This document shows, piece by piece, positions 3,029 through 35,198 of a stretch of 35,198 bases of DNA. Numbering within the stretch: position 1 is the first letter of the stretch; every line of letters begins with the position of its first letter. The stretch comes from Patescibacteria group bacterium. Its GTDB lineage: Bacteria; Patescibacteriota; Minisyncoccia; Phycocordibacterales; CSBR16-193. The notes under the pieces were generated by a model that was not told where the DNA came from, did no database searches, and saw only the letters and a program-made list of their open reading frames with translations. The stretch is taken from NCBI GenBank assembly GCA_051747785.1, contig JBNJGN010000004.1, positions 1-35,198 of the forward strand. The letters are read 5' to 3'. Made by a program: the position numbers and the translations under genes.

Positions 3029-3118
3029 ATATTCAGATCTCTTTTTCTTGATATTGCTTCCGGATGTTTTCGCCAAAATGTTCGGAAGTGTTATTATATG
3101 GGTATAAGAAATATATTT

Positions 3119-4888
3119 ATGAAGGACACTGATCCGGAAAAGGTTACTTATATAGGAGAAACTGATTCACGTAATAAGCGTAAGGTTTTTGGCATAAAGG
3201 CCAAGGACCGCTCTCGACATACATATGTTATCGGTAAGACCGGTATGGGTAAATCAACTCTTCTTGAGAATATGGCTGTTCAGGATATAAGGAACGGAGA
3301 GGGCTTGGCGTTCATTGATCCTCACGGCAAGAGTGCCGATCTTCTTCTTGAATATGTTCCTAAAGAACGGATGCAGGATGTTATATATTTTGCCCCTTTT
3401 GATGTTGAGAACCCCATAGCCTTTAATGTTATGGAAGATGTCGGCTATGATAAGCGCCACCTGGTTATGAGTGGTTTGATGAGTGCTTTTAAGAAGATAT
3501 GGGTAGATGCGTGGTCGGCAAGAATGGAGTACATTCTGGGTAATACCTTGCTTGCTCTTCTTGAGTATCCGGGCTCAACACTTCTTAGCATAAATAGAAT
3601 GTTCTCTGACAAGGAGTATCGTAAAAAAGTGGTTGATAATGTTACTGATTCAACCGTGAAAGCCTTTTGGGAAGAGGAGTTTGCTAAATACACCGATAGA
3701 TTTGCCGCCGAAGCCACACCGGCTATACAGAACAAGGTTGGACAGTTCACCGCTAATCCTTTGATAAGAAATATAATCGGGCAATCCACTTCCAGTTTTG
3801 ATCTCCGAAAAGCCATTGATGATAAAAGTATATTCATAGTTAATCTATCCAAGGGGCGTATAGGAGAAGTAAATGCCAACCTTTTGGGCAGTATTCTCAT
3901 AACTAAGCTCTATCTTTCTGCTATGTCTAGAGCAGATACTGCGGAGAGGGAGTTAAGAGATCTGCCCAACTTTTTTCTTTATGTTGACGAATTTCAGTCC
4001 TTTGCTAATGAATCTTTTGCCGATATTCTATCTGAGGCCAGAAAGTATAAGCTTAACTTAACAGTTGCTCATCAGTATATAGAACAGATGGCTGAAGAGG
4101 TCAAAGAGGCCGTATTCGGTAACGTTGGCACCATGATCTCTTTCCGTGTTGGAGCTTATGATGCGGAGGTGTTGGAAAAGGAGTTTGCTCCTAAATTTAC
4201 GGCAGAGGATCTTGTAAACTTGGGTTTTGCTCAGATATATCTGAAACTCATGATAGACGGTATAAGTTCTGCACCTTTTTCTGCGGTCACGCTGCCCCCC
4301 ATAGAGCCTCCGGAGATATCGGTTAAGCAAGATATTATTGAGTATTCTAGAAAGAAGTATTCATATCCTAGAGCGGAAGTGGAGGACTATATAAATAAGT
4401 GGTACGATTCAGCTAAAGAGAATATCTCTAAAGGGGAGGGAGGAAGTTCTGGTAATGACAAGAGTAAAAATAAAAACAAAAACAAAATACCACCAAAGAA
4501 AAAAGCTCCTCCTAAAGATGAAAAGGAAACGGAGGATGTCGGAGAAGAGTTAAGAAACGCTCTCTCAAAGGGTAAAAAATCTACGGACAAAAGTACTCCG
4601 GTCACGGATGATAATAAGACAGAACTTCGTGAGGCGTTGGCTTCTTTGGCAATGAAGGAATCTTTTTCTCAAAAGAGAGAAGGAAAAGGGGAAGGGTCAG
4701 AGAAAAAAGAAGATAAGGGAAAAGAAGCCGGAGATAAGACCGAGAGCAATGGCAAAGAAGAAAAGAATGATAGCCATAACTCTTCTGCTAATGGAGATTT
4801 TTCTAATGGCAAAAATATTAAAGAGGTTTCCAAAAGCGAACTTGAAAGAATATTAAATATAGAAGAAGAGGGACCGGATAAGTATTGA
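3119..4888 (+). CDS. VirD4/TraG/HerA-like P-loop ATPase with charged disordered C-terminus
   Basis: Walker A GKTGMGKS, IDPHG, Walker B LYVDEFQ, SEARKY, AHQY. ORF opens at 3098; 3119 preferred because TGtTATTAT abuts 3098. Confidence 0.85.
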   Translation: MKDTDPEKVTYIGETDSRNKRKVFGIKAKDRSRHTYVIGKTGMGKSTLLENMAVQDIRNGEGLAFIDPHGKSADLLLEYVPKERMQDVIYFAPFDVENPIAFNVMEDVGYDKRHLVMSGLMSAFKKIWVDAWSARMEYILGNTLLALLEYPGSTLLSINRMFSDKEYRKKVVDNVTDSTVKAFWEEEFAKYTDRFAAEATPAIQNKVGQFTANPLIRNIIGQSTSSFDLRKAIDDKSIFIVNLSKGRIGEVNANLLGSILITKLYLSAMSRADTAERELRDLPNFFLYVDEFQSFANESFADILSEARKYKLNLTVAHQYIEQMAEEVKEAVFGNVGTMISFRVGAYDAEVLEKEFAPKFTAEDLVNLGFAQIYLKLMIDGISSAPFSAVTLPPIEPPEISVKQDIIEYSRKKYSYPRAEVEDYINKWYDSAKENISKGEGGSSGNDKSKNKNKNKIPPKKKAPPKDEKETEDVGEELRNALSKGKKSTDKSTPVTDDNKTELREALASLAMKESFSQKREGKGEGSEKKEDKGKEAGDKTESNGKEEKNDSHNSSANGDFSNGKNIKEVSKSELERILNIEEEGPDKY

Positions 4889-10522: not shown

Positions 10523-10570
10523 TCTTATGCCGATGAATAAAATTATGATTAGAAATAAGACAAAACACTT

Positions 10571-11818
10571 ATGAAAGTTCTGATGTTCGGCTGGGAATTT
10601 CCTCCTCACAATAGTGGAGGTTTAGGAGTTGCTTGTAAGGGCATAGTGGATGCTCTCTGTGATAAAGGTACTACTGTTTCTTTTGTGCTTCCTACAAAGG
10701 TCCCTCTGTCACCGTCGGATAGTAATGTCCTTTTTGCTGATAAGGGGAAGGAGATGCTCTCTGCCAGGGGGGTTGATGTGCTTTTAACTCCTTATATTAC
10801 TTCAGATGTTTACGATGAAGAAAAGATAAAGGAGGACAAAAAAAAGAGCGGAAAGAAAAAGAAACGTTCTTCCGGTTATGCTAAGAACTTAGTAGAGGAA
10901 GTCTATCGTTACGGGGAGCTGGCGGGAGATATTGCCGAGAGCGAAGAGCATGATGTTATTCACGCGCATGATTGGCTTTCTTTTGAGGCTGGAATAGCCG
11001 CTAAGGAGGCCAGCGGCAAACCTTTTATAGCCCACATACATGCCACTGAGTTTGATCGGTGTGGTGAAAATGTTAATCCGAGGGTTTATGAAATAGAGAG
11101 AAGGGGATTACACGCAGCTGACTGTGTTGTTGCCGTTTCTTCTCTTACTAAAGATATAGTTGTTAATAAGTATGGCGTACCGGAGGAGAGAGTTACAGTG
11201 GTTCACAATGGCATAAGAGAGGAGGATTACAGCGGGGCCTTGGAAGAGTCTCCCGCTTCTGTGGTAAGCAGAATAAAAGATCACGGTTACAAGATCGTTC
11301 TCTTTGTTGGCAGAATAACCTTCCAAAAGGGTCCGGATTACTTCGTTAAGATGGCCAAGAAGATCAGGGCTTACGAACCCAACACCTTCTTTGTGGTCTG
11401 TGGTTCCGGGGATATGGAAAATCAGATGATCCGTGAAGCGGCCGCAGCCAAAATGTCTGACAGGTTTATATTTACCGGATTTTTAAGGGGGCAGGCCCTA
11501 AATACCGTTTACAAGAATGCTGATATATATATTATGCCTTCCGTTTCCGAGCCTTTTGGCTTAACTCCGCTTGAGGCAATGATACAGAATACACCGGTTT
11601 TGATATCTCGTCAGTCGGGAGTTAGCGAAGTTGTTGATCATGCCCTTAAAGCCGATTTTTGGGATGTTGATGATATGACCAATAAAGTTGTTTCTGTCTT
11701 GAAGAACCCATCTCTCTATCAGTGCCTTCGTTCTAACGGAAAAGTAGAGGTCTCTCGAATTAATTGGTATCCGGCCACTGATAAACTTATCTCTCTTTAC
11801 AGAAAAATGGCGAGTTAA
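10571..11818 (+). CDS. Glycosyltransferase family 4 (glycogen synthase-like)
   Basis: MFGWEFPPHNSGGLG, HAHDW, VGRITFQKG, PSVSEPFGLTPLEAM. Confidence 0.9.
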   Translation: MKVLMFGWEFPPHNSGGLGVACKGIVDALCDKGTTVSFVLPTKVPLSPSDSNVLFADKGKEMLSARGVDVLLTPYITSDVYDEEKIKEDKKKSGKKKKRSSGYAKNLVEEVYRYGELAGDIAESEEHDVIHAHDWLSFEAGIAAKEASGKPFIAHIHATEFDRCGENVNPRVYEIERRGLHAADCVVAVSSLTKDIVVNKYGVPEERVTVVHNGIREEDYSGALEESPASVVSRIKDHGYKIVLFVGRITFQKGPDYFVKMAKKIRAYEPNTFFVVCGSGDMENQMIREAAAAKMSDRFIFTGFLRGQALNTVYKNADIYIMPSVSEPFGLTPLEAMIQNTPVLISRQSGVSEVVDHALKADFWDVDDMTNKVVSVLKNPSLYQCLRSNGKVEVSRINWYPATDKLISLYRKMAS

Positions 11819-11984
11819 AGAACGCTCTTTTACCTGTTTGCCGGTAAGGTCTCTTTTGGTTTTAGTTGAACGTTGTGTACTCTAAACATCTTGTTCACAT
11901 TGCTTTATGCGCCTCTCTCAAGTTATTATATCTAACAGATGTTTAGCTTTTGATATCTCTTTAATCTTTTTAATTAAATAATTT

Positions 11985-13232
11985 ATGGCATCCATTTGCT
12001 TCTATTTTCAAGTACACCAGCCTTTTAGGATAAAAAAATACGGTATATTTGATATCGGGAGCACTGATTATTTTGATGATGACAGTGAGACGGATCTTAA
12101 TAATAAAAGGATATTAAAAAAGGTTGCCAATAAGTGCTATCTTCCGGCTAATGCCGTGTTAAAGGATGTTCTGCAGAAAAACCCGGAGTTCAAAGCCAGC
12201 TTCTCTTTTTCGGGTGTTTTTCTGGAGCAATGTGCTATGTATGCCCCCGAGGTTCTAGAGTCTTTCAGGGAACTTATTGATACTGGCAGAGTAGAGGTAA
12301 TGAGCGAGACTTACTATCACTCGCTCGCCGCGCTTTACTCTCAAAAGGAGTTTGAAAAGCAGGTCAAGCTCCACAGTGAGGCTATAAAGGAGATATTCGG
12401 TTTAGAGCCCAAGATTTTCAGGAACACCGAATTGATCTATAGCAATGACATTGCTCAAGAGGCTCGTAGAATGGGATTTAAGGCGGTTTTGGCCGAGGGG
12501 GCTGATCATGTCTTAGGCTGGAGGAGCCCTAACTTTGTTTATACTCCTCCCGGGGTAAAAGACCTGCCTCTTCTTTTGAAGAATTACAGACTTTCAGACG
12601 ATGTGGCTTTCAGGTTCGGGGAAAGGGGGTGGAAAGAGTATCCGCTAACAGCCGAGAAGTTTGCCAGCTGGGTTACTTCGCATAACGGTAGCGGAGAGGT
12701 TATAAATCTGTTTATGGATTACGAAACTTTCGGTGAACATCAGTGGGAGGACACCGGTATATTTGAATTCTTAAGACATTTTCCTTCAATGTTCTTAAAA
12801 CATAAGGATAATGATTTTGTCACTCCTGCCGAGGCAGTGGAAAAGTACAGTCCTGTTGGGGAAATAGATGTGCCGAATTATGTTTCCTGGGCGGATGTTG
12901 AGAGAGATATTTCCGCATGGCGTTCCAACGAGATACAGCATGATGCTCTAAGGTGTATATATGACATGGAGCGTGATGTTGTTGAACTTGATGACCCTGC
13001 TATTTTGCATACCTGGAGAAAACTTCAGACTTCTGACCACTTTTACTATATGTGTACTAAGTGGTTTCAAGACGGTGATGTTCATAAGTACTTTAATCCT
13101 TATGATTCTCCCTATGAAGCTTTTATTGCTTTTTGTAATGTGGTAAGTGATCTTAAATTACGCATAGAAAGCAAAAAGAAAGAAGATTCTGTTGACCTTA
13201 AAAATAAAGAAGTGTTAGAAAAAGAAATTTAA
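11985..13232 (+). CDS. Glycoside hydrolase family 57 (alpha-amylase-like)
   Basis: FQVHQP, ETYYHSL, FRNTELIY (nucleophile), MDYETFGEHQW (acid/base), TSDHFYYM. Confidence 0.92.
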   Translation: MASICFYFQVHQPFRIKKYGIFDIGSTDYFDDDSETDLNNKRILKKVANKCYLPANAVLKDVLQKNPEFKASFSFSGVFLEQCAMYAPEVLESFRELIDTGRVEVMSETYYHSLAALYSQKEFEKQVKLHSEAIKEIFGLEPKIFRNTELIYSNDIAQEARRMGFKAVLAEGADHVLGWRSPNFVYTPPGVKDLPLLLKNYRLSDDVAFRFGERGWKEYPLTAEKFASWVTSHNGSGEVINLFMDYETFGEHQWEDTGIFEFLRHFPSMFLKHKDNDFVTPAEAVEKYSPVGEIDVPNYVSWADVERDISAWRSNEIQHDALRCIYDMERDVVELDDPAILHTWRKLQTSDHFYYMCTKWFQDGDVHKYFNPYDSPYEAFIAFCNVVSDLKLRIESKKKEDSVDLKNKEVLEKEI

Positions 13233-15865: not shown

Positions 15866-16228
15866 ATGTCAGTAATAATAGCCAAATGGTTAGTAGGCGC
15901 ACTTTCTGTAATGTTGGTAGCCGAGGTCTTGGATGCCGTATCGGTATCTGGTCCTTATATCGCTCTGATAGTGGCTTTAATATGGGGTTTTATGAATATT
16001 TCTGTAAGACCTATTTTGATCTTTATAACTCTTCCCTTGAATATATTAACTTTCGGTCTTTTTACCTTCATGATAAACGGATTACTTTTGCTGTTTTTGG
16101 CCTCTTTTATAGACGGGCTTTCGGTTGATGGATTCTGGTGGGCGGTATTAGCCGCCGCTCTGGTGGCTGCTGTTAATTGGGTTGGTAATAGGATGATACT
16201 TTCTATAGCTAAGGTGGATTCTGAGTAG
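15866..16228 (+). CDS. YvlD/phage-holin-4-like 4-TM membrane protein
   Basis: VRPILIFITLPLNILTFGLFTFMING and VDGFWWAVLAA signature. Confidence 0.85.
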   Translation: MSVIIAKWLVGALSVMLVAEVLDAVSVSGPYIALIVALIWGFMNISVRPILIFITLPLNILTFGLFTFMINGLLLLFLASFIDGLSVDGFWWAVLAAALVAAVNWVGNRMILSIAKVDSE

Positions 16229-26054: not shown

Positions 26055-26084
26055 AGACCCCGTCTTTAGGCGGGGTTTTTCTTT
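26055..26084 (+). terminator. Intrinsic terminator after nrdJ
   Basis: ACCCCGTCT-tt-AGGCGGGGT stem followed by TTTTCTTT. Confidence 0.8.
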
Positions 26085-26121: not shown

Positions 26122-27765
26122 ATGTTTAAACTGTTACAGAAATATTTTAAAAAGATAACTCTTTTAGTACCTGCTTTGGCGGTAATCTTTTCCTTATTGT
26201 TCCCTGTGTCCGTTTTTTCGGTTGAACCTGTTTATCATAACTTTTCCTTAACATATCCTATAGGCGAACTACAGCCGTCCGAAGGTGATATCATTATCCG
26301 TAACAGGTATAGCAACACTTTCCGGATATCCTCAATAGAGGATAGTGCCGACGTTTTTGGAGTTGTCGCTTCTGATGCGGCGTTGGTTTTTAGGACAGAA
26401 GACCCTGATTCGGTTCCTATAATGAGATTCGGGCAAACCGCCGTTAACGTTATATTAAAAAATGGTGATATAGAAAGAGGAGATAATATAACCACTTCGG
26501 AGGTGGCTGGTCATGGGCAGGCGCTTCAACCTTATCATAGGTATACTTTAGGCGTTGCTCTGGAGGGTTTAAGTGAAGAAGACGCCAGTGAGGAGGTGGT
26601 TACTCCGGACGGAGAGGTCTATCCCTCCGGGCAGGTAGTAGTGGACCTTAGGATAAGTTTTCATGGTTCGGGGATTGTAAATATCTCTCTGCAAGACATT
26701 CCTTCTGAAGCTGAACCACTTGAGGTTGGTGCTATGTTTCGTCAAAACTTTCAGACTATGCGCCGGTTAGGCCAGGAGGTGACGGAACAAACTCGCGATA
26801 TCTTGGAGACAGAAGCTGGATCCGTAGCTTCCAGGCTCATTGAAACAGGAGGGGCGGTTACGGGGGCCATGATATCCTTCGGTGCGCTTTTCTTAAGTCC
26901 GATAACTGTTTTTGAGGTTTTTGCTTTACCTTTTAGAGTATGGGCGCTGTTCCTTGCCCTGTTTGGTATTAAAAGAAGATCTAGACCATGGGGTGTGGTG
27001 TATGACAGCGTGACCAAGCAACCTATTGATCCGGCTTATGTAATGCTGGAAGATGATAAGGGAAATGAAGTAAAGATGTCTATAACGGACATTGACGGAC
27101 GTTATGGTTTCCTGGTGGAGCCTGGTAAGTATAAAATGATTGCTAACAAGACCAACTATATCTTTCCGTCTGAGAAGCTTAAAGATAGAAGGTCCGATGT
27201 TATCTATAACAATCTTTATTTCGGGGAGACCTTTGAGCTTAATGAGAAAAATGCCGTAATTGATAAGAACATTCCTATGGACCCACAGGATTTTGACTGG
27301 AATGAGTTTACCAAATTAAATAAAAAGATTCTGACCTATTATTCTTACGCTGATCTTTTCAAGGCTTTTATTTTTCAGTGGCTATTTTATACCGGTTTTA
27401 TTATTTCCTTAGTTTCCGTTTTTCTGGTTCCCGATACTTATAGCTACGTTATACTGGGTATATATCTTTTTCTTTTCTTTTTACGTATCGTAGGGCTCAA
27501 ACCCAGGCGCTATGGAAAGGTCGTGGAAAAGGAAACGAAAAACCCTCTGTCTTATGCTATTGTGCGCATATGCCTTAAAAGATCGGGAAGAGAGGTTTCT
27601 ACCTCTGTGTGTGATGCTTACGGGCGCTACTTCGCCCTTGCCAGTAATGGAGAGTATTACGTGAAAATAGACAAGAAAAAAGGAGAGGAGGATTACGAGA
27701 ATGTTTTCACTTCCGAGCCCTTCGAGGTGAAAGGGGGAGTAATAAGGAGAACTTTTAGGGTGTGA
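26122..27765 (+). CDS. Membrane protein: signal peptide, secreted beta domain, TM segments and two carboxypeptidase-regulatory-like beta-sandwich repeats
   Basis: Start 26122 preferred over TTG 26083 (TGaTAAAAT 8 nt upstream); N-domain paralogous to the next gene; repeats RPWGVVYDSVTKQPI...TDIDGRY and RRYGKVVEKETKNPL...CDAYGRY. Confidence 0.75.
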   Translation: MFKLLQKYFKKITLLVPALAVIFSLLFPVSVFSVEPVYHNFSLTYPIGELQPSEGDIIIRNRYSNTFRISSIEDSADVFGVVASDAALVFRTEDPDSVPIMRFGQTAVNVILKNGDIERGDNITTSEVAGHGQALQPYHRYTLGVALEGLSEEDASEEVVTPDGEVYPSGQVVVDLRISFHGSGIVNISLQDIPSEAEPLEVGAMFRQNFQTMRRLGQEVTEQTRDILETEAGSVASRLIETGGAVTGAMISFGALFLSPITVFEVFALPFRVWALFLALFGIKRRSRPWGVVYDSVTKQPIDPAYVMLEDDKGNEVKMSITDIDGRYGFLVEPGKYKMIANKTNYIFPSEKLKDRRSDVIYNNLYFGETFELNEKNAVIDKNIPMDPQDFDWNEFTKLNKKILTYYSYADLFKAFIFQWLFYTGFIISLVSVFLVPDTYSYVILGIYLFLFFLRIVGLKPRRYGKVVEKETKNPLSYAIVRICLKRSGREVSTSVCDAYGRYFALASNGEYYVKIDKKKGEEDYENVFTSEPFEVKGGVIRRTFRV

Positions 27766-27884
27766 TCTTATCTCTCAGAGTAATTTTCCCCGATTTACTT
27801 TATCCTTTTTATGTTAGTATGTTTATATGACCGGTGTATCGGTTGGTTTTGTGCATATTTCTTTTAAGATCCTTCCTTAATAAA

Positions 27885-28715
27885 ATGAGTTCACGTTTAT
27901 TGATCTTTATTCTTTCCTTTCTTTTGCTTGTAGCCTCGGGGGTTTTCTCTGATATTGCTTTAGCTCAGATAGGTCAGGGCATAGAGTCCGATGAAGGAGA
28001 TATATCTCCGGGAAGTATCATATCCAGAGACCCCAGAAGTAATTACTTTCATCTCTCTAGGGATGTGAGTGACCCCAATATATTTGGTGTTGTCGTGGAA
28101 AAACCTATTGCCAATATTCGTCCTGACGAGGAAAGTAATATATCGGTTTTAAGAACAGGCGAAGTAAGAGTTAGAGTTATCTTAAAAGAGGAGGGTATTG
28201 AAACAGGGGACTACATAACAACCTCGGAAGTTGAAGGATTGGGAATGCGCGCCAGCGATGAACATTCCAATGTTTTAGGAGTGGCTCTTGAGGACTTTAC
28301 CTCAGAGGACGCAGAGTCATCAGTTGAGCACCAAGAGCAAGAAGTGCCGGTAGGGCTAATATTGGTTGATCTTCAGATAGGGAGTCGGCAGAGGGAGGGG
28401 GGCTCTGTGCCTCCTGGAGAGGATAATAATGGTTTGACCCCTTTAGGGTCACAGGTTGAGCACTATTTGGCTATGATAGCTCGGTATCTGGCCGCGGCTT
28501 TGGTGGCGGTTTCGGCCCTCTATCTTTCTTTCAGGTTCTTTAAATCAAACGTGGCGGGAGGTTTATCTGCGCTGGGTCGCAATCCTATGGCGCGTCAGTC
28601 CATACAGAAGATGATGCTTTTTAATATGTTCTTGGTTATAGTTATAAGTGTGGGGGGTCTTCTTCTGTCTGCTCTGATCCTTCTCATTCCGGTTTTTATT
28701 AGCAGGATAATATGA
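27885..28715 (+). CDS. Secreted-domain / ATP synthase subunit c-like hairpin fusion protein
   Basis: Signal peptide ending ALA; C-terminal TM-GLSALGRNPMARQSIQ-TM resembles the c-subunit R(N/Q)P loop; lies directly before the b-like gene; ATG 27885 preferred over GTG 27834. Confidence 0.65.
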   Translation: MSSRLLIFILSFLLLVASGVFSDIALAQIGQGIESDEGDISPGSIISRDPRSNYFHLSRDVSDPNIFGVVVEKPIANIRPDEESNISVLRTGEVRVRVILKEEGIETGDYITTSEVEGLGMRASDEHSNVLGVALEDFTSEDAESSVEHQEQEVPVGLILVDLQIGSRQREGGSVPPGEDNNGLTPLGSQVEHYLAMIARYLAAALVAVSALYLSFRFFKSNVAGGLSALGRNPMARQSIQKMMLFNMFLVIVISVGGLLLSALILLIPVFISRII

Positions 28716-28759
28716 TATTGCATTATAATATTGGTCAGTGGTAAGTAATTATTTACATT

Positions 28760-29731
28760 ATGTTTGAAATGTTTGAAGAAATAGATCCCTTTTTTATACT
28801 CCTAACTTCTCTTATCGCTGCGGTGATTTTGCTTTTGCCTACCGCTATTTGGCTCTTTATTCTTTTAAAAAAACAGAATAAAGAGTATAAAGAGGTAATA
28901 AGAGATGCTGACTCGCGTGCCGAGGATATAGTAAGTAAAGCCAAGACAAGATCAAGAGAGATAGTAACAGAGGCGGACAAGCAAGCCAGTCGTTACTTAT
29001 CTGAAAGAAAAACGGAAATGGATTCCATGCATACTGAACTTGTGGGACGGTTGGATAATTTAAAAGACGAAGCCCAAAAGAGCTTTTCCAAGAGTGTAGA
29101 AAAGGTTGATTCCTTTTCAGAAGAGATATCTGAGGAAGCCAAAAGAGAGATACGTTCATCTGTACAAAAAGCAAATACTTCTTTGGGTGAGGTTATAGAT
29201 GGTATGAAAGAGCAAATAGAAAAAGATATGAAGAAAACCAAAGATAAGATCCCGGAGATTGAAAAACAGATCAGGGATCTTGAGGCTCTGAATGAAAATG
29301 CCAAAAAAAGCTTTTCTGAAAGCTCTGAGAAATTTATTAAGATCTCCAATGAAGCATCAGAAGAGGCTCACGATCATTTAATCGCCTCCGCTAAAAAGGC
29401 GGATGAGCTCATGGAAAACTTTACAGGGGAAGCTCGAAAACAGATTAAGGAAGATATTACCAAGACTGCCGAGGAGATGTCTTCAAACAGAAAGGAAATG
29501 GTCCGCCGCTTCAAAGAAGTTCTCAATAGTGAAATGGAAGAAGCTAGAAAGGAGTTGCAAGACTATAGAAAAGACAGATTAAGAGTAGTAGATGAGCATA
29601 TTGTTACTTTGGTTGAGGAGACGGTGGCCATAGCTCTTAACACCGGACTTTCCAAAGATGACCACAGAGAGGCGGTAAAAAGTGCCTTGGAAGAAGCCAA
29701 AAAAAGAGGAGCTTTTGATAAATCCCGTTAA
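28760..29731 (+). CDS. ATP synthase subunit b-like protein, elongated
   Basis: Single N-terminal TM, long charged coiled coil, C-terminal IVTLVEETVAIALNTGLSKDDHREAVKSAL resembling the b C-terminus; position upstream of delta-like/alpha. Confidence 0.65.
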   Translation: MFEMFEEIDPFFILLTSLIAAVILLLPTAIWLFILLKKQNKEYKEVIRDADSRAEDIVSKAKTRSREIVTEADKQASRYLSERKTEMDSMHTELVGRLDNLKDEAQKSFSKSVEKVDSFSEEISEEAKREIRSSVQKANTSLGEVIDGMKEQIEKDMKKTKDKIPEIEKQIRDLEALNENAKKSFSESSEKFIKISNEASEEAHDHLIASAKKADELMENFTGEARKQIKEDITKTAEEMSSNRKEMVRRFKEVLNSEMEEARKELQDYRKDRLRVVDEHIVTLVEETVAIALNTGLSKDDHREAVKSALEEAKKRGAFDKSR

Positions 29732-29734
29732 TTT

Positions 29735-30262
29735 ATGGATCCTTTTGAGGTCATTTTCTCCAATACCTATACCTATGCGGACTTTCGATACCGTCTGTCT
29801 GTTCTGCGAGAGTTTACGGAGTATATTTTATACACTAAAGAGAAGGAGAGCCTTTCTATTATGGAGAAGTTTGATCGTTTTTCCGGGGAAAAGGGGATGA
29901 GCTACGAAGATACAAAATTTTTCAAGGAATGGGGAGAGGATGTCTTTCGTAAAGTAGCCTTTGGAGGTGATATATATAAGACTCTTGAGAACATGGAGCA
30001 AAGATTCAAAGAGAGCCCTCTTTTTATACTAAGAGTACCGGTTAGTTTTTCTAAAGAAGATGATAGGTACTTTGGGAAGTGGGTGAGAGAGAACGTTGAC
30101 AGTCGTGCTTTTTTAAAAATAAAAGTTGATGAAAGCGTAAATGCCGGTTGCGTTTTCAGCTGGAGTAACGATCAGTACAATATGAGTTTTGAAAGATTAA
30201 GGAAAGAAAGATACGATAAGATATCAGAACGGATCAGAGAGGTTTTAGATTCTAAAATGTAG
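29735..30262 (+). CDS. ATP synthase subunit delta/OSCP-like protein (divergent)
   Basis: 175 aa between b-like and alpha; C-terminal LKIKVDESVNAGCVFSWSNDQYNMS resembles the delta VDPSLIGG...D.S motif. Confidence 0.6.
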   Translation: MDPFEVIFSNTYTYADFRYRLSVLREFTEYILYTKEKESLSIMEKFDRFSGEKGMSYEDTKFFKEWGEDVFRKVAFGGDIYKTLENMEQRFKESPLFILRVPVSFSKEDDRYFGKWVRENVDSRAFLKIKVDESVNAGCVFSWSNDQYNMSFERLRKERYDKISERIREVLDSKM

Positions 30263-30308
30263 AGATTTTCCACTTATGAATATCCTTAAACGATAGTATA
30301 ATATAATA

Positions 30309-31805
30309 ATGAGAGAAAAGTTTGCGAGCAAAGAGGTCGGATATGTGACTCAGGTAAATAACTATCTTTTAACTATAAAAGGTCTGCCAAGCGTAAGAGT
30401 CAATGATATTATCGCTGACAGAAAGAATAGAAGGGCGGTTATTCATTCCCTGTACGATGACTCTGTTAGAGCTTTATCTTTAAGCAAGGAACCTGTTGAT
30501 CCCGGGGCGGAGTTTTTTCTAGATAGGGAAAGTGGGAGGATGAACATGGGCGATCACTTAAAGGGTAGTGTGGTTAACGCGTTAGGTAAAACTGTTGACT
30601 CCTCCGGAGGTAATGGGGTTTTGGGGGATAAAACTTCTCAGGAATTGGAGTTTGACGTGAAAGCCAAAAATATTGACTCCAGAGATTTTATAAAAGATCA
30701 ACTTGTCACCGGTTTTGCTCTTATAGATACGATAGTTCCGGTGGGTAAAGGTCAGCGTGAACTTGTATACGGTCCCATACATAGCGGTAAAAGCGAGTTT
30801 TTGCAAAGTATTGTAATAAACCAAAAGAAACAGAAGAATATATGTATTTATGCAGCTATAGGTAAACCGTCTATTTTTACCTCTCGATTGATCAAGGTAC
30901 TTAAAGACAATGACGCTCTTGATAACACCGTAATTCTTTCGGCTCTTTCTGATGAGCCTGCTCCTATGATAACCGTAGCACCCTCCACTGCTTTCCTTAT
31001 AGCGGAGCATTTCTGTTCCAAAGGTGAAGATGTTGTTTTAATACTGGATGACCTGGGAATACACGCCAAGTATATAAGAGAGTCAGCTCTCTTATCTGGG
31101 CAGTTCCCCGGAAGAGAGTCCTATCCGGGTGATATTTTTTATCAGCATGCTCACCTTATGGAAAGGAGTGGTAGTTTTAATGAAAAACAGGGCAATGGAA
31201 CTATAACTCTCTTTCCTGTTTTGCAGACGGATGTTGAGAGTTTTTCCAATATAATACCCACTAATCTTATGGCCTCTACTGATGGACATCTTTTCTTTTC
31301 AGCGGAGATGCATGCCGAAGGCTTTAAACCGGCGGTCTCTATATTGCAGTCTGTTACTCGAGTGGGACATATGACACATAATAACTTGCAAAGAGGTCTT
31401 TCTACTAAGCTTATGAATGTTCTATCGGAGTATCCTCGCCAACAGGAGTATAGTAGGTTCGGTACACAGATGAGTGAACACACTCGCGATATCCTTAAGA
31501 AGGGTAGAGTGATATATGAGCTCTTAAACCAAAACCACGGAGAGTTAATACCTCTTGGAACTCAGTTGGTACTTCTTTCGTTGGTTTTTACTTCATTTTT
31601 TGATGGCGATAAAAGAGATGTTGATTTTGTAAGGTTTGAACGTAAGAACTTGATAAAAGCCGCCAATGAAAGTGACATTCTTAAAAAGGCTAGAGAGCAG
31701 GCAGACTCGGGGGAGATCGGTGTTGAAGACTTTATTTCTCTCATAGAAGAGGGGGTCAAAGATCTGAGCGCTCTTTTTGATTCTAAAGGTAAAGATACAA
31801 GCTGA
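30309..31805 (+). CDS. atpA: F1 ATPase alpha subunit, divergent
   Basis: TGFALIDTIVPVGKGQRELVYG, CIYAAIG, LILDDL, PGRESYPGDIFY, IPTNLMASTDGHLF, arginine finger SVTRVG. Confidence 0.9.
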   Translation: MREKFASKEVGYVTQVNNYLLTIKGLPSVRVNDIIADRKNRRAVIHSLYDDSVRALSLSKEPVDPGAEFFLDRESGRMNMGDHLKGSVVNALGKTVDSSGGNGVLGDKTSQELEFDVKAKNIDSRDFIKDQLVTGFALIDTIVPVGKGQRELVYGPIHSGKSEFLQSIVINQKKQKNICIYAAIGKPSIFTSRLIKVLKDNDALDNTVILSALSDEPAPMITVAPSTAFLIAEHFCSKGEDVVLILDDLGIHAKYIRESALLSGQFPGRESYPGDIFYQHAHLMERSGSFNEKQGNGTITLFPVLQTDVESFSNIIPTNLMASTDGHLFFSAEMHAEGFKPAVSILQSVTRVGHMTHNNLQRGLSTKLMNVLSEYPRQQEYSRFGTQMSEHTRDILKKGRVIYELLNQNHGELIPLGTQLVLLSLVFTSFFDGDKRDVDFVRFERKNLIKAANESDILKKAREQADSGEIGVEDFISLIEEGVKDLSALFDSKGKDTS

Positions 31806-31834
31806 TCTTCTGTCTGTTAACATTTTTTGTTTCT

Positions 31835-34074
<2,240 letters not shown>

Positions 34075-34091
34075 TCAATTATATTCTTTAT

Positions 34092-34115
34092 GCCGGTAAT
34101 CCCACCGGTTTTTTT
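34092..34115 (+). terminator. Intrinsic terminator after atpD
   Basis: GCCGGT-aatccc-ACCGGT followed by a T-run. Confidence 0.7.
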
Positions 34116-34152
34116 GTTTGCCAAAAATTAATTACGCTTTCATAATATATGG

Positions 34153-34182
34153 CTTATCTCGGCCTTATCTCGGTTATATCGG
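34153..34182 (-). repeat. Triple CCGAGATAA-like array, left copy
   Basis: CTTATCTCGGCCTTATCTCGGTTATATCGG; 26/30 identical to the reverse complement of 34941-34970. Confidence 0.8.
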
Positions 34183-34529
34183 CTAATTCGTTAACAGTAT
34201 TTGATGTTACAAGGTGAGGATTATTATCCTTTAGTAACCGTGACTTCTCTTTTTAGATAATAAAACAGTATCTGTGTACTTTTCTCTATAAGCACCTTTA
34301 AATAATTATTTTGTATCTGCGCTTCAGACTACTTAATAGGTATGCTTGTTATTATAAAAGGAGCAGCGACTTTTTATCTTTTGATGATCTCTGAGTATAC
34401 TTAGCTGTTATGGAGCCATGCTTCTACTATTACTTTTAACTATTGGAAAAAGTAATAATAATGATGTTATCAAATAAGTAGTGGACATGATCTTGCAAAT
34501 GTTTATTTAGGAAGTATGAAATCTCTATT

Positions 34530-34811
34530 CTAAACATTTGCATATATTTTTACCTCATTCTCTTTGGCATATAATAGAGAACGGGGAAAGGTGAACTCCT
34601 TCTGTGTTTTGCTTTCTGTTTTAACTACTATAGGGGTGTCTTTTAGGATCGTTATGAAGTTGGCGTGTTGGGGAAGAATGTCAAAGACCCCGTTAGTATT
34701 CTCGGCTGAAATGGATAGGGCGTAACCTTCCCATACTACTTCGCCTAAAGAGATTATACGGACATTTAAGAGATCTTGATTCTTTTCTGTGGCCTCTTCA
34801 TTTTTATTCAT
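34530..34811 (-). CDS. atpC: F1 ATPase epsilon subunit, N-terminal beta-sandwich only
   Basis: LNVRIIS..EVVWEG.A.SIS...NGVFDILPQHANFITIL matches the epsilon G.LGILP.H motif; no C-terminal helical hairpin. Confidence 0.8.
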   Translation of the reverse strand: MNKNEEATEKNQDLLNVRIISLGEVVWEGYALSISAENTNGVFDILPQHANFITILKDTPIVVKTESKTQKEFTFPRSLLYAKENEVKIYANV

Positions 34812-34818
34812 ATTTATA

Positions 34819-34827
34819 ATTATATCA
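34819..34827 (-). promoter_or_regulatory. Extended -10 promoter (TGaTATAAT) for probable leaderless atpC
   Basis: Minus-strand TGATATAAT 7 nt before ATG 34811. Confidence 0.6.
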
Positions 34828-34895
34828 TTTTCTAACCTCTTTTTTTAAGAATTGCACACACTGTCCACAGTGGCGGTTTCACCTTTATATCTGTC

Positions 34896-34904
34896 TGTTA
34901 TAAT
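34896..34904 (+). promoter_or_regulatory. Extended -10 promoter (TGtTATAAT) for the HTH gene
   Basis: Perfect TGnTATAAT about 100 nt upstream of ATG 35004, divergent from the atpC promoter. Confidence 0.55.
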
Positions 34905-34940
34905 TAAATAACGAGACCAAAGAGAGGTACGTAAAATAAT

Positions 34941-34970
34941 CCGAGATAACCGAGATACCGCCTAGATAAG
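34941..34970 (+). repeat. Triple CCGAGATAA-like array, right copy (putative operator)
   Basis: CCGAGATAA-CCGAGATAC-CG-CCTAGATAA-G between the promoter and the HTH start. Confidence 0.8.
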
Positions 34971-35003
34971 ACATTTTTTATATCTCGCTTATATATCATC
35001 CTA

Positions 35004-35198
35004 ATGGAGGAGGAAAACGAATTAAAATATATTCCAACGCGTGAAGCTTCCAAGCTTACCGGTTACACGGCTGATTATATAGGGCAGCTATGTCGTTCTG
35101 GTTTGGTGCTTTGTCGTAAGGATGGAAAGGGTTGGTTAGTGGATAGAGATGATCTTCTAAGATACAAAGAAGGCATATCCGCCGGTATACCCCAAAGT
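35004..35198 (+). CDS. Protein with N-terminal excisionase/MerR-like (HTH_17-type) domain, 3' end outside window
   Basis: Not in the ORF track; translates MEEENELKYIPTREASKLTGYTADYIGQLCRSGLVLCRKDGKGWLVDRDDLLRYKEG..., open to the window end. Confidence 0.8.
   Translation, partial: MEEENELKYIPTREASKLTGYTADYIGQLCRSGLVLCRKDGKGWLVDRDDLLRYKEGISAGIPQS

What the first reader, a model, noticed from the sequence alone, without database searches (positions are those of the whole stretch)
26122..34811. F1Fo-derived locus without ion-translocating parts: candidate ATP-driven rotary surface machine
Seen: gene order X(multi-TM)-Y(c-like)-b-like-delta-like-alpha-gamma-beta, with epsilon nearby. This mirrors canonical atpB-E-F-H-A-G-D-C, but the a and c positions hold two signal-peptide proteins sharing an extracellular domain. 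No subunit a is recognisable and the c-like hairpin has no carboxylate. Beta keeps its catalytic motifs ([14 protein letters not shown], Walker B) and alpha keeps the arginine finger. Known: H+/Na+ coupling needs both the a-subunit Arg and the c-subunit Asp/Glu, and repurposed F1-like ATPases exist in mycoplasmas (gliding, MIB-MIP). The order is not that of N-ATPase (atpDCQRBEFAG). Inference: an ATP-hydrolysing motor that turns or remodels an external protein ring (host attachment, motility, substrate threading) instead of making ATP. I cannot confirm it is undescribed.
Basis: partly seen in the sequence, partly recalled or inferred. Interest (0 to 1): 0.92.

Follow-up and report, generated by a model that had tools for sequence, protein, structure and literature searches.

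The report
F-type ATPase without ion path
A tiny candidate-phyla bacterium carries a full ATP-synthase-like motor whose membrane rotor subunit has lost its ion-binding site, gained an outward-facing domain and has no ion-channel partner, so it probably burns ATP to do mechanical work at the cell surface.

Summary
Window 26122-34811 encodes X, Y, b-like, delta-like, alpha, gamma and beta on the + strand, and a short epsilon on the - strand.

- **Y:** a signal peptide, a ~150-aa outer domain and a C-terminal hairpin that matches only F-type c subunits. The ion-binding carboxylate is hydrophobic in 0 of 150 family representatives.
- **No subunit a:** none was found in this genome.
- **Catalytic residues:** the motifs checked are intact in 31 of 31 Y-linked alpha/beta sets.
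- **Spread:** at least 55 of 401 sampled Patescibacteria genomes have a full-length Y. Of these, 32 also have a separate canonical atpB operon and 23 do not.
- **Linkage:** Y sits beside a divergent F1 set at 30 of 40 loci.
- **Phylogeny:** these alpha/beta fall outside the clade that joins E. coli with canonical Patescibacteria enzymes.

It is a lineage-specific neighbour built on a common membrane module. A more widespread neighbour is a giant MerR-HTH surface protein.

Caveat: a 2.8-kb contig of this genome holds V-type I and K genes.

Rotation and function are inferred. The closest known system is the mycoplasma F1-like X0 ATPase. My literature searches found no description of this one.

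The parts
26055..26078 (+). Terminator-like hairpin after the ribonucleotide reductase gene. It marks the upstream edge of the X-to-beta unit.
   Evidence: 10 pairs, 6 G-C, followed by a T run. It overlaps the alternative TTG start at 26083, so the ATG at 26122 is the likelier start of X.
26122..27765 (+). X: a signal-peptide-like N-terminus, one Y-like outer domain, then about 4 TM helices with two CarboxypepD_reg (transthyretin-like) domains. It is a lineage-specific neighbour, not a subunit-a equivalent.
   Evidence: PF13620, E 2e-11; shared domain with Y; Y-domain HMM, E 2.3e-35; about 10 full-length homologues; the C-terminal module in at least 791 proteins; same position in L101 and L102 only.
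27885..28715 (+). Y: a signal peptide, a ~150-aa outer domain, a ~35-aa linker and a C-terminal c-subunit-like hairpin (28434-28712). The hairpin has the GRNP loop and Ile where the ion-binding carboxylate belongs.
   Evidence: R-N-P invariant; weak ATP-synt_C / F0F1 subunit C hits in family members; only c subunits hit in the PDB; 0 of 150 acidic at the carboxylate position; canonical Patescibacteria c have the same loop and E/D at that position.
28760..29731 (+). b-like peripheral-stalk subunit: one N-terminal TM helix and a long coiled coil. At 323 aa it is longer than in other loci (166-266 aa).
   Evidence: weak F0F1 B hits; family profile hits ATP synthase subunit b, E 2.2e-6, among coiled-coil noise.
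29735..30262 (+). delta/OSCP-like subunit.
   Evidence: NF009976, E 0.015; family profile hits OSCP/delta, best E 2.9e-11, profile positions 39-159 of 165.
30309..31805 (+). Divergent F1 alpha, 27% identical to E. coli alpha. It keeps a P-loop of the form G-x4-G-K-S and the Arg finger.
   Evidence: 339 bits against a cut-off of 554; long branch, 1.24.
31835..32668 (+). F1 gamma.
   Evidence: PF00231, E 2.5e-22; 54 bits against a cut-off of 194.
32656..34074 (+). Divergent F1 beta with Walker A, the catalytic GER.REG and the Walker B Asp intact.
   Evidence: TIGR01039, 460.6 bits against a cut-off of 462.85; 38% identical to E. coli beta.
34092..34109 (+). Terminator-like hairpin after beta.
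34530..34811 (-). Short epsilon of 93 aa. It has the beta-sandwich domain only and lacks the C-terminal helical domain. It is transcribed on the opposite strand.
   Evidence: PF02823, E 4.4e-12; promoter-like site 34848-34819; Y-linked epsilon 80-109 aa in 29 of 30; canonical 133-152 aa in 14 of 15.
35004..35198 (+). 5' end of a large gene cut by the contig end. The visible part is an N-terminal helix-turn-helix. In the 89%-identical relative it continues as HTH, then a TM helix near residue 160, then a large outer region.
   Evidence: (HTH_17, E 5.1e-5, below the Pfam cut-off).

Best explanation
The locus belongs to a widespread second rotary-ATPase system of Patescibacteria, derived from the F-type enzyme.

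**What it keeps:** a complete F1 head (alpha3beta3, inferred), the central stalk (gamma and a short epsilon) and the peripheral stalk (b, delta).

**What has changed in the membrane part:**
- The ring subunit (Y) is a c-subunit hairpin. A hydrophobic residue replaces its ion-binding carboxylate.
- The outer N-terminus of Y carries a ~150-residue exported domain.
- There is no subunit a.

**Consequence:** with no ion-binding site and no half-channel partner, the system cannot couple to H+ or Na+ flow by the known mechanism.

**Most likely mechanism:** it hydrolyses ATP and turns gamma-epsilon together with a ring of Y. The ring's outer crown then delivers torque or conformational work outside the cell. 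The likely targets are proteins carrying the same domain: X in this lineage, and the C-terminal part of giant surface proteins in others.

**Shown here:** the parts list, the loss of the carboxylate, the absence of subunit a, the conserved catalytic residues, the conserved gene linkage and the separate phylogenetic position.

**Inferred:** ring formation, rotation, hydrolytic direction, the outward position of the domain, and the target.
For: - **Parts:**. delta-like is confirmed by profile against OSCP/delta (E 2.9e-11). b-like is confirmed by profile against subunit b (E 2.2e-6).
- **Y hairpin is c-derived:** it hits only F-type c subunits in the PDB, 11 of 11 hits. Canonical Patescibacteria c subunits share its GRNP loop and score 15-35 bits with the Y hairpin HMM.
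- **Carboxylate lost:** 0 of 150 best representatives have D/E at +18 after the loop Pro. Only 6 of 150 have any acidic residue in TM2. By contrast, 17 of 18 canonical Patescibacteria c subunits and E. coli c have E/D there.
- **No subunit a:** PF00119 is absent from G000. No multi-TM gene is conserved in the operon.
- **Sole rotary system in some genomes:** five Y-bearing genomes that are 95-100% complete have no PF00119, PF00137 or PF01496 match at all.
- **Catalysis kept:** the Walker A, GER.RE, Walker B Asp and alpha Arg finger are each conserved in 31 of 31 sets.
- **Short epsilon:** it lacks the C-terminal helices in 29 of 30 loci. In canonical enzymes that domain inhibits hydrolysis (established knowledge).
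- **A paralogous system, not a decayed synthase:** 32 of 55 Y-bearing genomes also have atpB at another place and 4-6 PF00006 matches. Canonical alpha/beta plus E. coli form one clade with SH-aLRT 100, and the Y-linked sets lie outside it.
- **Linkage:** Y lies next to the F1 genes at 30 of 40 loci.
- **Family size:** 993 clusters at 50% identity with E<=1e-10.
- **Shared outer domain:** X and Y are the only carriers in G000. 5 of 7 complete giant genes next to Y loci carry it near the C-terminus.
Against: - No structure, complex model, expression data or biochemistry could be obtained.
- Without subunit a it is unclear what holds the b stalk against the ring. Torque needs a reaction point, and none is identified outside the X-bearing lineage.
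- A polar residue is conserved 5-6 positions before the lost carboxylate: Asn in 111 and His in 14 of 150, with Gln or Glu in the other subgroup. An unorthodox ion site is therefore not excluded.
- Y is unlinked from the divergent F1 in at least 5 genomes. One genome, G030, has Y but no alpha/beta pair.
- The Y-like domain is common in giant proteins of about half the sampled genomes, so finding it in a neighbouring giant gene is weak evidence.
- G000 itself has V-type I and K genes on a contig fragment. Its energy coupling may therefore be ordinary, with this system purely accessory.
- The basal position of Y-linked alpha/beta in the tree may be a long-branch effect.
Confidence: 0.55

Rival explanations
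1. It is still an ion-translocating ATPase or synthase. It would use an unorthodox ion site, for example the conserved Asn/His or Gln/Glu in TM2, and an unrecognised stator partner in place of subunit a. Candidates for that partner are X, the TM helix of the giant protein, or the b helices.
For: - The full stator and rotor set is retained: b, delta, gamma and epsilon.
- A polar residue is conserved in TM2: Asn 111 and His 14 of 150 at +13, Gln 15 and Glu 4 at +12.
- In 23 of 55 Y-bearing genomes no atpB was found. In 5 of the 5 that were tested, no c/K or V-type I was found either. There, this would be the only rotary enzyme.
Against: - All known F/V/A rotors need a membrane carboxylate, and it is absent in 0 of 150.
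- No conserved multi-TM partner lies in the operon.
- 84 of 401 sampled Patescibacteria genomes have no PF00006 match at all, so lacking a coupled ATPase is tolerated in this phylum.
- 32 of 55 Y-bearing genomes keep a separate canonical operon.
- The polar residue sits nearer the cytoplasmic loop than the canonical site (alignment).
Confidence: 0.12
2. The F1-like head does not spin a ring to act on outside targets. Instead the complex is an ATP-dependent assembly, export, anchoring or signalling device for the giant surface proteins. Y would serve as a fixed membrane and wall anchor. The MerR-HTH giant protein would act as a membrane-tethered regulator of the divergently transcribed operon.
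For: - Very large genes with alike N-termini lie divergently upstream of Y at 13 of 20 loci of the window's subgroup.
- The MerR HTH was confirmed by Pfam in 3 of the 4 giants tested.
- The same architecture follows epsilon in the window's close relative.
- Rotary ATPases and type III export ATPases are homologous (established knowledge; abstract of PMC3665681 in the listing).
- The mycoplasma Type 3 F1-like ATPase is needed for a surface protein system by an unknown mechanism (abstract of PMC12994834).
Against: - Retention of gamma, epsilon, b and delta is what a torque-transmitting rotary design needs.
- The gamma shaft fills the hexamer channel, so threading a substrate through it is unlikely (established knowledge).
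- The giant-gene neighbourhood is not seen in the second subgroup.
- Giant genes are common in these genomes.
Confidence: 0.2
3. It is a decaying remnant of a duplicated ATP synthase operon with no present function.
For: - All four F1 subunits fall below NCBIfam equivalog cut-offs.
- The window's alpha is a very long branch.
- The membrane parts are lost.
Against: - Frames are intact at all loci read.
- The catalytic residues checked are conserved in 31 of 31 sets.
- About 1000 clusters at 50% identity keep an invariant R-N-P loop.
- Operon order is conserved across many families.
Confidence: 0.03

Closest known systems
Mycoplasma F1-like X0 ATPases: Type 3 is linked to MIB-MIP, Type 2 is the Mycoplasma mobile gliding motor
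   Same: - An extra, fast-evolving F1-like set (alpha, beta, gamma, epsilon) sits beside the genuine F1Fo in host-dependent bacteria with very small genomes.
- It has a membrane sector that is not Fo and serves a surface process instead of ATP synthesis.
- The Type 3 cluster includes a protein with a signal peptide, outer domains and two C-terminal TM helices (MMCAP2_0577). This is the same architecture as Y.

Sources: abstract of PMC3369863; abstract and section 2.1 of PMC12994834.
   Different: - It is in a different phylum.
- By NCBIfam scores the window's subunits are no closer to the mycoplasma families than to ordinary atpA/atpD, and they fall below all cut-offs.
- b and delta are kept here, whereas none is described in the seven-gene mycoplasma clusters.
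- There is no 12-TM protein and no 19-kDa cytoplasmic protein here.
- The hairpin of Y is demonstrably c-derived.
- No Y family member matched a mycoplasma-associated NCBIfam family: 0 of 26.
Canonical bacterial F1Fo ATP synthase (atpBEFHAGDC)
   Same: - Gene order c-b-delta-alpha-gamma-beta(-epsilon).
- All F1 and stalk subunits are homologous.
- The c-like hairpin has the same GRNP loop as canonical Patescibacteria c subunits.
   Different: - No subunit a.
- No carboxylate in the ring subunit.
- A ~150-aa exported domain is fused to the ring subunit.
- Epsilon lacks its C-terminal helices.
- Beta is 38% and alpha 27% identical to E. coli, against 62-68% and 47-57% for canonical Patescibacteria enzymes.
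- It forms separate clades.
N-ATPase (atpDCQRBEFAG)
   Same: A second, laterally spread F-type operon that coexists with the regular one. Source: abstract of PMC2881411, seen in the listing.
   Different: - N-ATPases keep subunits a and c with ion-binding sites and have a different gene order.
- The window's beta scores 438.9 bits against a cut-off of 752, and alpha 302 against 750.5, for the N-ATPase models.

Membership tests
Canonical F1Fo ATP synthase | Catalytic alpha3beta3 with Walker A/B, the catalytic Glu and the alpha Arg finger | tested here: met
   Each is conserved in 31 of 31 Y-linked sets, the window included.
Canonical F1Fo ATP synthase | Central stalk gamma and epsilon | tested here: met
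   Epsilon has only the N-terminal beta-sandwich (93 aa).
Canonical F1Fo ATP synthase | Peripheral stalk b and delta | tested here: met
   Family profiles hit OSCP/delta at E 2.9e-11 and subunit b at E 2.2e-6 (the latter among coiled-coil noise).
Canonical F1Fo ATP synthase | c subunit with a membrane-embedded Asp/Glu that binds the ion | tested here: not met
   The hairpin is homologous. The carboxylate column is Ile in the window and is acidic in 0 of 150 representatives.
Canonical F1Fo ATP synthase | Subunit a (PF00119) with the essential Arg | tested here: not met
   No PF00119 match in G000 at E<=1. None lies beside Y at 40 loci.
Canonical F1Fo ATP synthase | Scores above the NCBIfam equivalog cut-offs | tested here: not met
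   score against cut-off: beta 460.6 / 462.85; alpha 339 / 554; gamma 54.1 / 194.45; epsilon 40.8 / 67.25.
N-ATPase | Gene order atpDCQRBEFAG and membership of the alternate F1F0 models | tested here: not met
   The order differs. TIGR03305 scores 438.9 against 752, and TIGR03324 scores 302 against 750.5.
Mycoplasma F1-like X0 (Type 2/3) | [quoted passage not shown] | tested here: not met
   score against cut-off: 225.1 / 520; 410.4 / 570; 304.8 / 600; 373.4 / 850.
Mycoplasma F1-like X0 (Type 2/3) | Seven-gene cluster with a 12-TM protein and no b or delta | tested here: not met
   No 12-TM gene lies in the operon, and b and delta are present. The cluster description comes from PMC12994834 section 2.1.
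Mycoplasma F1-like X0 (Type 2/3) | Membrane protein with a signal peptide, outer domains and two C-terminal TM helices | tested here: inconclusive
   Y has this architecture. No mycoplasma sequence was available to test homology. 0 of 26 Y members hit a mycoplasma-associated NCBIfam family.
V/A-type ATPase | A/B catalytic subunits with the I and K membrane subunits | tested here: not met
   The window genes are F-type. I and K occur only on contig C53. No A/B subunits are in the assembly.

The most novel reading that the evidence does not exclude
A rotary ATPase whose output is outside the cell. ATP hydrolysis spins a ring of Y subunits, and the ring's exported crown engages homologous domains on other surface proteins. 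Those would be X in this lineage and the C-terminal domain of membrane-anchored giant proteins of 2,500 to about 11,700 aa in others. The machine would then wind, pull or reposition these giant proteins, for example for host attachment or release in epibiotic Patescibacteria. It would be the first F-type derivative with a c-derived rotor used as a mechanical surface motor, and it would have arisen independently of the mycoplasma F1-like X0 systems.
Probability: 0.2. Interest if true: 0.95.

Novelty: new variant of a known kind. Interest (0 to 1): 0.82.

Why it matters
Rotary ATPases are defined by coupling ion flow to ATP. Outside the mycoplasmas, no F-type derivative is known that has given up the ion path while keeping the whole rotor and stator.

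This system is found in at least 55 of 401 sampled Patescibacteria genomes and forms about 1000 sequence clusters. It keeps every torque-transmitting part and has turned the ring subunit into a carrier of an outward-facing domain.

If it works as a motor, it gives this enormous uncultured radiation an ATP-driven surface machine. It would also be a natural experiment on what a c-ring does without protons. It also bears on metabolic reconstruction. Counting atpA and atpD in these genomes as 'ATP synthase present' would be wrong for the 23 Y-bearing genomes in which no atpB was found.

Tried and rejected
**X as a divergent subunit a: rejected.** Its C-terminal module is a common Patescibacteria membrane module with many different N-terminal domains. 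X is absent from the other 40 Y loci.

**Fold of the outer domain: unresolved.**
- The profile against the PDB gave nothing significant (best E 0.087).
- There were only weak matches to phage capsid-accessory families: PF23982 in 11 of 26 members (best 4.6e-6) and PF09956 in 1; phrog_673 in 6 of 28.

**hhalign of the hairpin profile against the single E. coli c sequence:** no result (probability 0.1). The HMM searches did detect c subunits.

**BLAST of the neighbouring giant proteins against G000:** nothing at 1e-5. The window's own giant gene is cut by the contig end.

**Expression:** no RNA holder was listed.

**Literature.** Searches found no description of this system.
- 'Patescibacteria' together with 'F1-like ATPase' gave 0 papers.
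- PMC7304191 does not mention ATP synthase in its main text.
[quoted passage not shown] The sections I read (8, 15, 19, 20, and passages found) do not describe it.

**Counts that are lower bounds or not verified.**
- The count of 55 full-length Y genomes is a lower bound, because 168 match rows were not listed.
- The identity of the third PF00006 match in genomes with 3 or 5 matches was not checked.
- Self-matches inflate the HTH column, so I rely instead.

**Tallies that include an unpublished genome.** include genome G154 as one of the 401.

Full report
**What is in the window.**

The + strand carries, in order:
- X, 26122-27765 (a TTG at 26083 is also open)
- Y, 27885-28715 (a GTG at 27834 is also open)
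- a b-like gene, 28760-29731
- a delta-like gene, 29735-30262
- alpha, 30309-31805
- gamma, 31835-32668
- beta, 32656-34074

Epsilon lies on the - strand at 34530-34811. Terminator-like hairpins at 26055-26078 and 34092-34109 bracket X to beta. A promoter-like site precedes epsilon.

Pfam and NCBIfam recognise alpha, gamma, beta and epsilon as F-type. All four fall below NCBIfam's equivalog cut-offs; beta scores 460.6 against 462.85 and alpha 339 against 554.

The rest of the window is housekeeping: Mur ligase, SecA, MurB, Obg, GatB, PheST and a class II ribonucleotide reductase. G+C is even across it. Nothing suggests a mobile element.

**The two proteins in the 'a' and 'c' positions.**

X and Y share one domain: 40% identity over 131 residues, E 1e-21. 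They are the only two matches to the Y profile in the whole genome.

Y has four parts:
- a hydrophobic N-terminus with an Ala-x-Ala-type site
- the shared domain
- a ~35-residue linker
- two C-terminal TM helices joined by an invariant Arg-Asn-Pro loop

Several lines show that the hairpin is a c subunit:
- A profile of the hairpin hits only F-type c subunits in the PDB, 11 of 11 hits, best E 2.1e-4, aligned over the whole hairpin.
- 2 of 26 family members reach Pfam ATP-synt_C at E<=1, best 4.5e-4.
- 9 of 26 reach an NCBIfam 'F0F1 subunit C' model, best 5.1e-5.
- Canonical c subunits of other Patescibacteria have the same E-A-[IL]-G-R-N-P-E loop and score 15-35 bits with the Y hairpin HMM.

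In those canonical proteins the residue 18 positions after the loop Pro is Glu or Asp in 17 of 18, as in E. coli. In Y it is Ile.

In the 150 best representatives of the family, that position is I, L, V, F, A, G, T, S, M or C, and never D or E. Only 6 of 150 have any acidic residue in TM2.

A polar residue is conserved five to six positions earlier. It is Asn in 111 and His in 14 of 150, and Gln or Glu in a second subgroup.

In c subunits both termini face outward and the loop faces F1 (established knowledge). A signal peptide plus an N-terminal domain therefore fits an outward-facing crown. This topology is inferred, not shown.

**No subunit a.**

PF00119 has no match at E<=1 in G000, which is 94.4% complete and 0.5% contaminated. 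PF00006 matches only the window's alpha and beta.

The one PF00137 match lies on contig C53 (2789 bases). It is a K-type proteolipid next to a V_ATPase_I gene, and both genes are cut by the contig ends. Homologues of that I subunit occur in 5 of 40 other genomes of the same class.

The organism may therefore also have a V/A-type ATPase whose remaining genes are unassembled. Alternatively the contig may be a remnant or a mis-binned fragment. This cannot be settled here.

**X is not the missing a.**

- Only about 10 proteins match X over its whole length. They come from contigs of the same lengths as those bearing the closest Y homologues.
- At least 791 proteins match only its C-terminal 60%. 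That part comprises TM helices with two CarboxypepD_reg domains. These proteins carry other N-terminal domains, including VWA and Ig.
- The order RNR-X-Y-b is kept in two relatives, at 89% and 62% Y identity.
- tblastn with X found nothing but the shared domain inside Y itself at the other 40 loci.

**The system is widespread and conserved.**

The Y profile finds full-length matches (ORFs of about 250-380 aa) in at least 55 of 401 sampled genomes of the phylum. Many other matches are the outer domain alone, inside ORFs of 1000 to 6900 aa. The hairpin profile finds 993 clusters at 50% identity with E<=1e-10 among 1.84 billion representatives. The hairpin is always at the C-terminus, and 111 of the best 150 proteins are 230-310 aa long.

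I fetched 40 Y loci.
- In 30 of them, Y lies beside alpha, gamma, beta and a short epsilon.
- In 24 of them, as in the window, exactly two ORFs lie between Y and alpha: a 166-266-aa protein with one N-terminal TM helix and a 143-178-aa protein.
- A profile of the second ORF hits OSCP/delta at E 2.9e-11.
- A profile of the first hits subunit b at E 2.2e-6, among coiled-coil noise.
- No multi-TM gene is conserved in the operon.
- Epsilon is 80-109 aa in 29 of 30 Y-linked loci, against 133-152 aa in 14 of 15 canonical operons. It lacks the C-terminal helical domain.

In five genomes where Y stands alone, the divergent set b-delta-alpha-gamma-beta-epsilon lies elsewhere without a ring gene beside it.

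**It is a second system, not a broken synthase.**

Of the 55 Y-bearing genomes:
- 32 also have atpB at another place and 4-6 PF00006 matches.
- 23 have no atpB and 1-4 PF00006 matches (the cross-tabulation is mine).

Five of those 23, each 95-100% complete, also have no PF00137 and no PF01496 match.

Canonical operons fetched from 20 genomes are a-c-b-delta-alpha-gamma-beta-epsilon.
- Their beta is 62-68% and their alpha 47-57% identical to E. coli.
- Y-linked beta is 35-44% and alpha 26-36% identical.
- The window's beta is 38% and its alpha 27% identical.

I built a joint alpha+beta tree of 101 rows (IQ-TREE quick search, LG+G4), with each half rooted on the other.
- E. coli and all canonical Patescibacteria sequences form one clade with SH-aLRT 100 in both halves.
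- The Y-linked sequences lie outside it in two groups: 19 rows with the window, and 11-12 rows.
- These groups coincide with the two similarity classes of Y.

Whether this reflects an old split or fast evolution after an in-phylum duplication is open. The window's alpha is a long branch (1.24).

**The motor is catalytically intact.**

In 31 of 31 Y-linked sets:
- beta keeps GG[AS]G[VLI]GKT, GER.RE, and the Walker B Asp and Arg
- alpha keeps the Arg finger and a G-x4-G-K-[ST] loop

**Neighbours.**

In 13 of the 20 loci of the window's subgroup, a very large gene lies divergently upstream of Y. These genes have alike N-termini and one TM helix at about residue 100-185. Pfam finds a MerR-type HTH at the N-terminus in 3 of the 4 tested.

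In the window, the 3'-open ORF at 35004-35198 has a weak HTH_17 match. In the 89%-identical relative that gene continues as HTH, a TM helix at about residue 160, and a large outer region, until its contig also ends.

I extended nine giant genes, and seven could be read to their end. Five of these carry one Y-like domain near the C-terminus:
- 4660 aa (G243)
- 5727 aa (G315)
- 2810 aa (G200)
- 2479 aa (G148)
- a gene of about 11,700 aa (G198), with partial matches only

Two do not: 4483 aa (G352) and about 8800 aa (G057).

This domain is common in giant proteins of the phylum. The link is therefore suggestive, not proven.

**How it most likely works.**

Every part that transmits torque in F1Fo is kept. 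Both parts that let ions through are gone, and the ring subunit has gained an exported domain. The simplest reading is an ATP-hydrolysing rotary or torsional machine whose work is delivered outside the membrane.

The loss of epsilon's C-terminal domain, which inhibits hydrolysis in canonical enzymes (established knowledge), fits a hydrolytic direction.

The weakest point is the reaction point for the stator. Without subunit a, nothing known holds the b stalk against the ring. X (here) or the TM helix of the giant protein (elsewhere) are candidates only by position.

I put this reading at 0.55. The alternatives are:
- a non-rotary assembly, anchoring or signalling role tied to the giant proteins: 0.2
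- a cryptic ion-coupled enzyme: 0.12
- a relic: 0.03

**Comparison with what is known.**

The nearest parallel is the mycoplasma F1-like X0 ATPases. They are an extra F1-like set with a non-Fo membrane sector. They are needed for gliding (Type 2) or for the MIB-MIP antibody-cleavage system (Type 3). The Type 3 cluster includes a protein with a signal peptide, outer domains and two C-terminal TM helices.
- For Type 3 I read the abstract of PMC3369863 and the abstract and section 2.1 of PMC12994834.
- For Type 2 I saw only the abstracts in the listing.

The Patescibacteria system is not a member of those families by NCBIfam cut-offs. It also keeps b and delta, lacks the 12-TM protein, and has a ring subunit that is demonstrably c-derived.

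It is not an N-ATPase, by gene order and scores.

My searches found no paper describing it. One 2026 preprint mentions unusual CPR beta neighbourhoods in its Methods, and its closed supplements may show them.

**Limits.**

Structure prediction, complex prediction, the protein atlas and the earlier-findings tool were all unavailable. No RNA run holds the locus. All functional statements are therefore inference from sequence, gene order and distribution.

Noticed in passing
G000 contig C53 (L001/L054), whole contig 1-2789: A 2.8-kb contig holds only a V_ATPase_I gene (E 6e-27) and a K-type proteolipid gene (E 1.7e-17). Both are cut by the contig ends. No A/B catalytic subunits are in the assembly. 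The I subunit has homologues in 5 of 40 other genomes of the class.
   Followed up: partly
window 35004-35198; L101 16096-17806; L034 3-4658 (-); L038 1-4779 (-); L110, L112-L115, L118: Giant surface-protein genes (2,479 to about 11,700 aa) lie next to the Y operon in many genomes. They have a cytoplasmic MerR-type HTH at the N-terminus and one TM helix. 5 of the 7 read to the end carry a Y-like domain near the C-terminus. A membrane-tethered MerR-type regulator divergent from the operon is one possible reading.
   Followed up: partly
window 26850-27765 (C-terminal 60% of X): The module of TM helices plus two CarboxypepD_reg domains occurs in at least 791 Patescibacteria proteins with varied N-terminal domains, such as VWA and Ig. 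It appears to be a common but undescribed membrane anchor.
   Followed up: no
L052 (G245:C1), Y 11998-12765 and alpha 10569-11993, - strand: In this complete genome, Y abuts alpha with a gap of 5 bases. There are no b-like or delta-like ORFs between them.
   Followed up: no
G030: This 99%-complete genome has a full-length Y match (E 3.9e-48) but only one PF00006 match (E 2.6e-31). That is, Y without an alpha/beta pair.
   Followed up: no
L063 3743-4891, L080 7997-9151 (-), and ~383-392-aa ORFs in L103, L105-L107: In the second subgroup, a class V aminotransferase gene sits directly upstream of Y or of b. Pfam confirmed this for L063 and L080; the others are judged by size and position only.
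   Followed up: partly
L034 13234-13914; L039 314-1450: Peptidase M50 (site-2 protease) genes lie within a few kb of the operon in two different families. This may be plain synteny with the nusG-L11-L1 cluster.
   Followed up: no
window 34075-34529: A 455-base stretch between beta and the inverted epsilon has no ORF of 50 aa or more. It lies in the lowest-G+C part of the window (0.337 for 34001-35000).
   Followed up: no
window 15866-16228 and 3098-4888: A Phage_holin_4_2 family protein (E 8e-27) and a protein with a weak TrwB/coupling-protein-like match (E 7.7e-6) sit among housekeeping genes.
   Followed up: no
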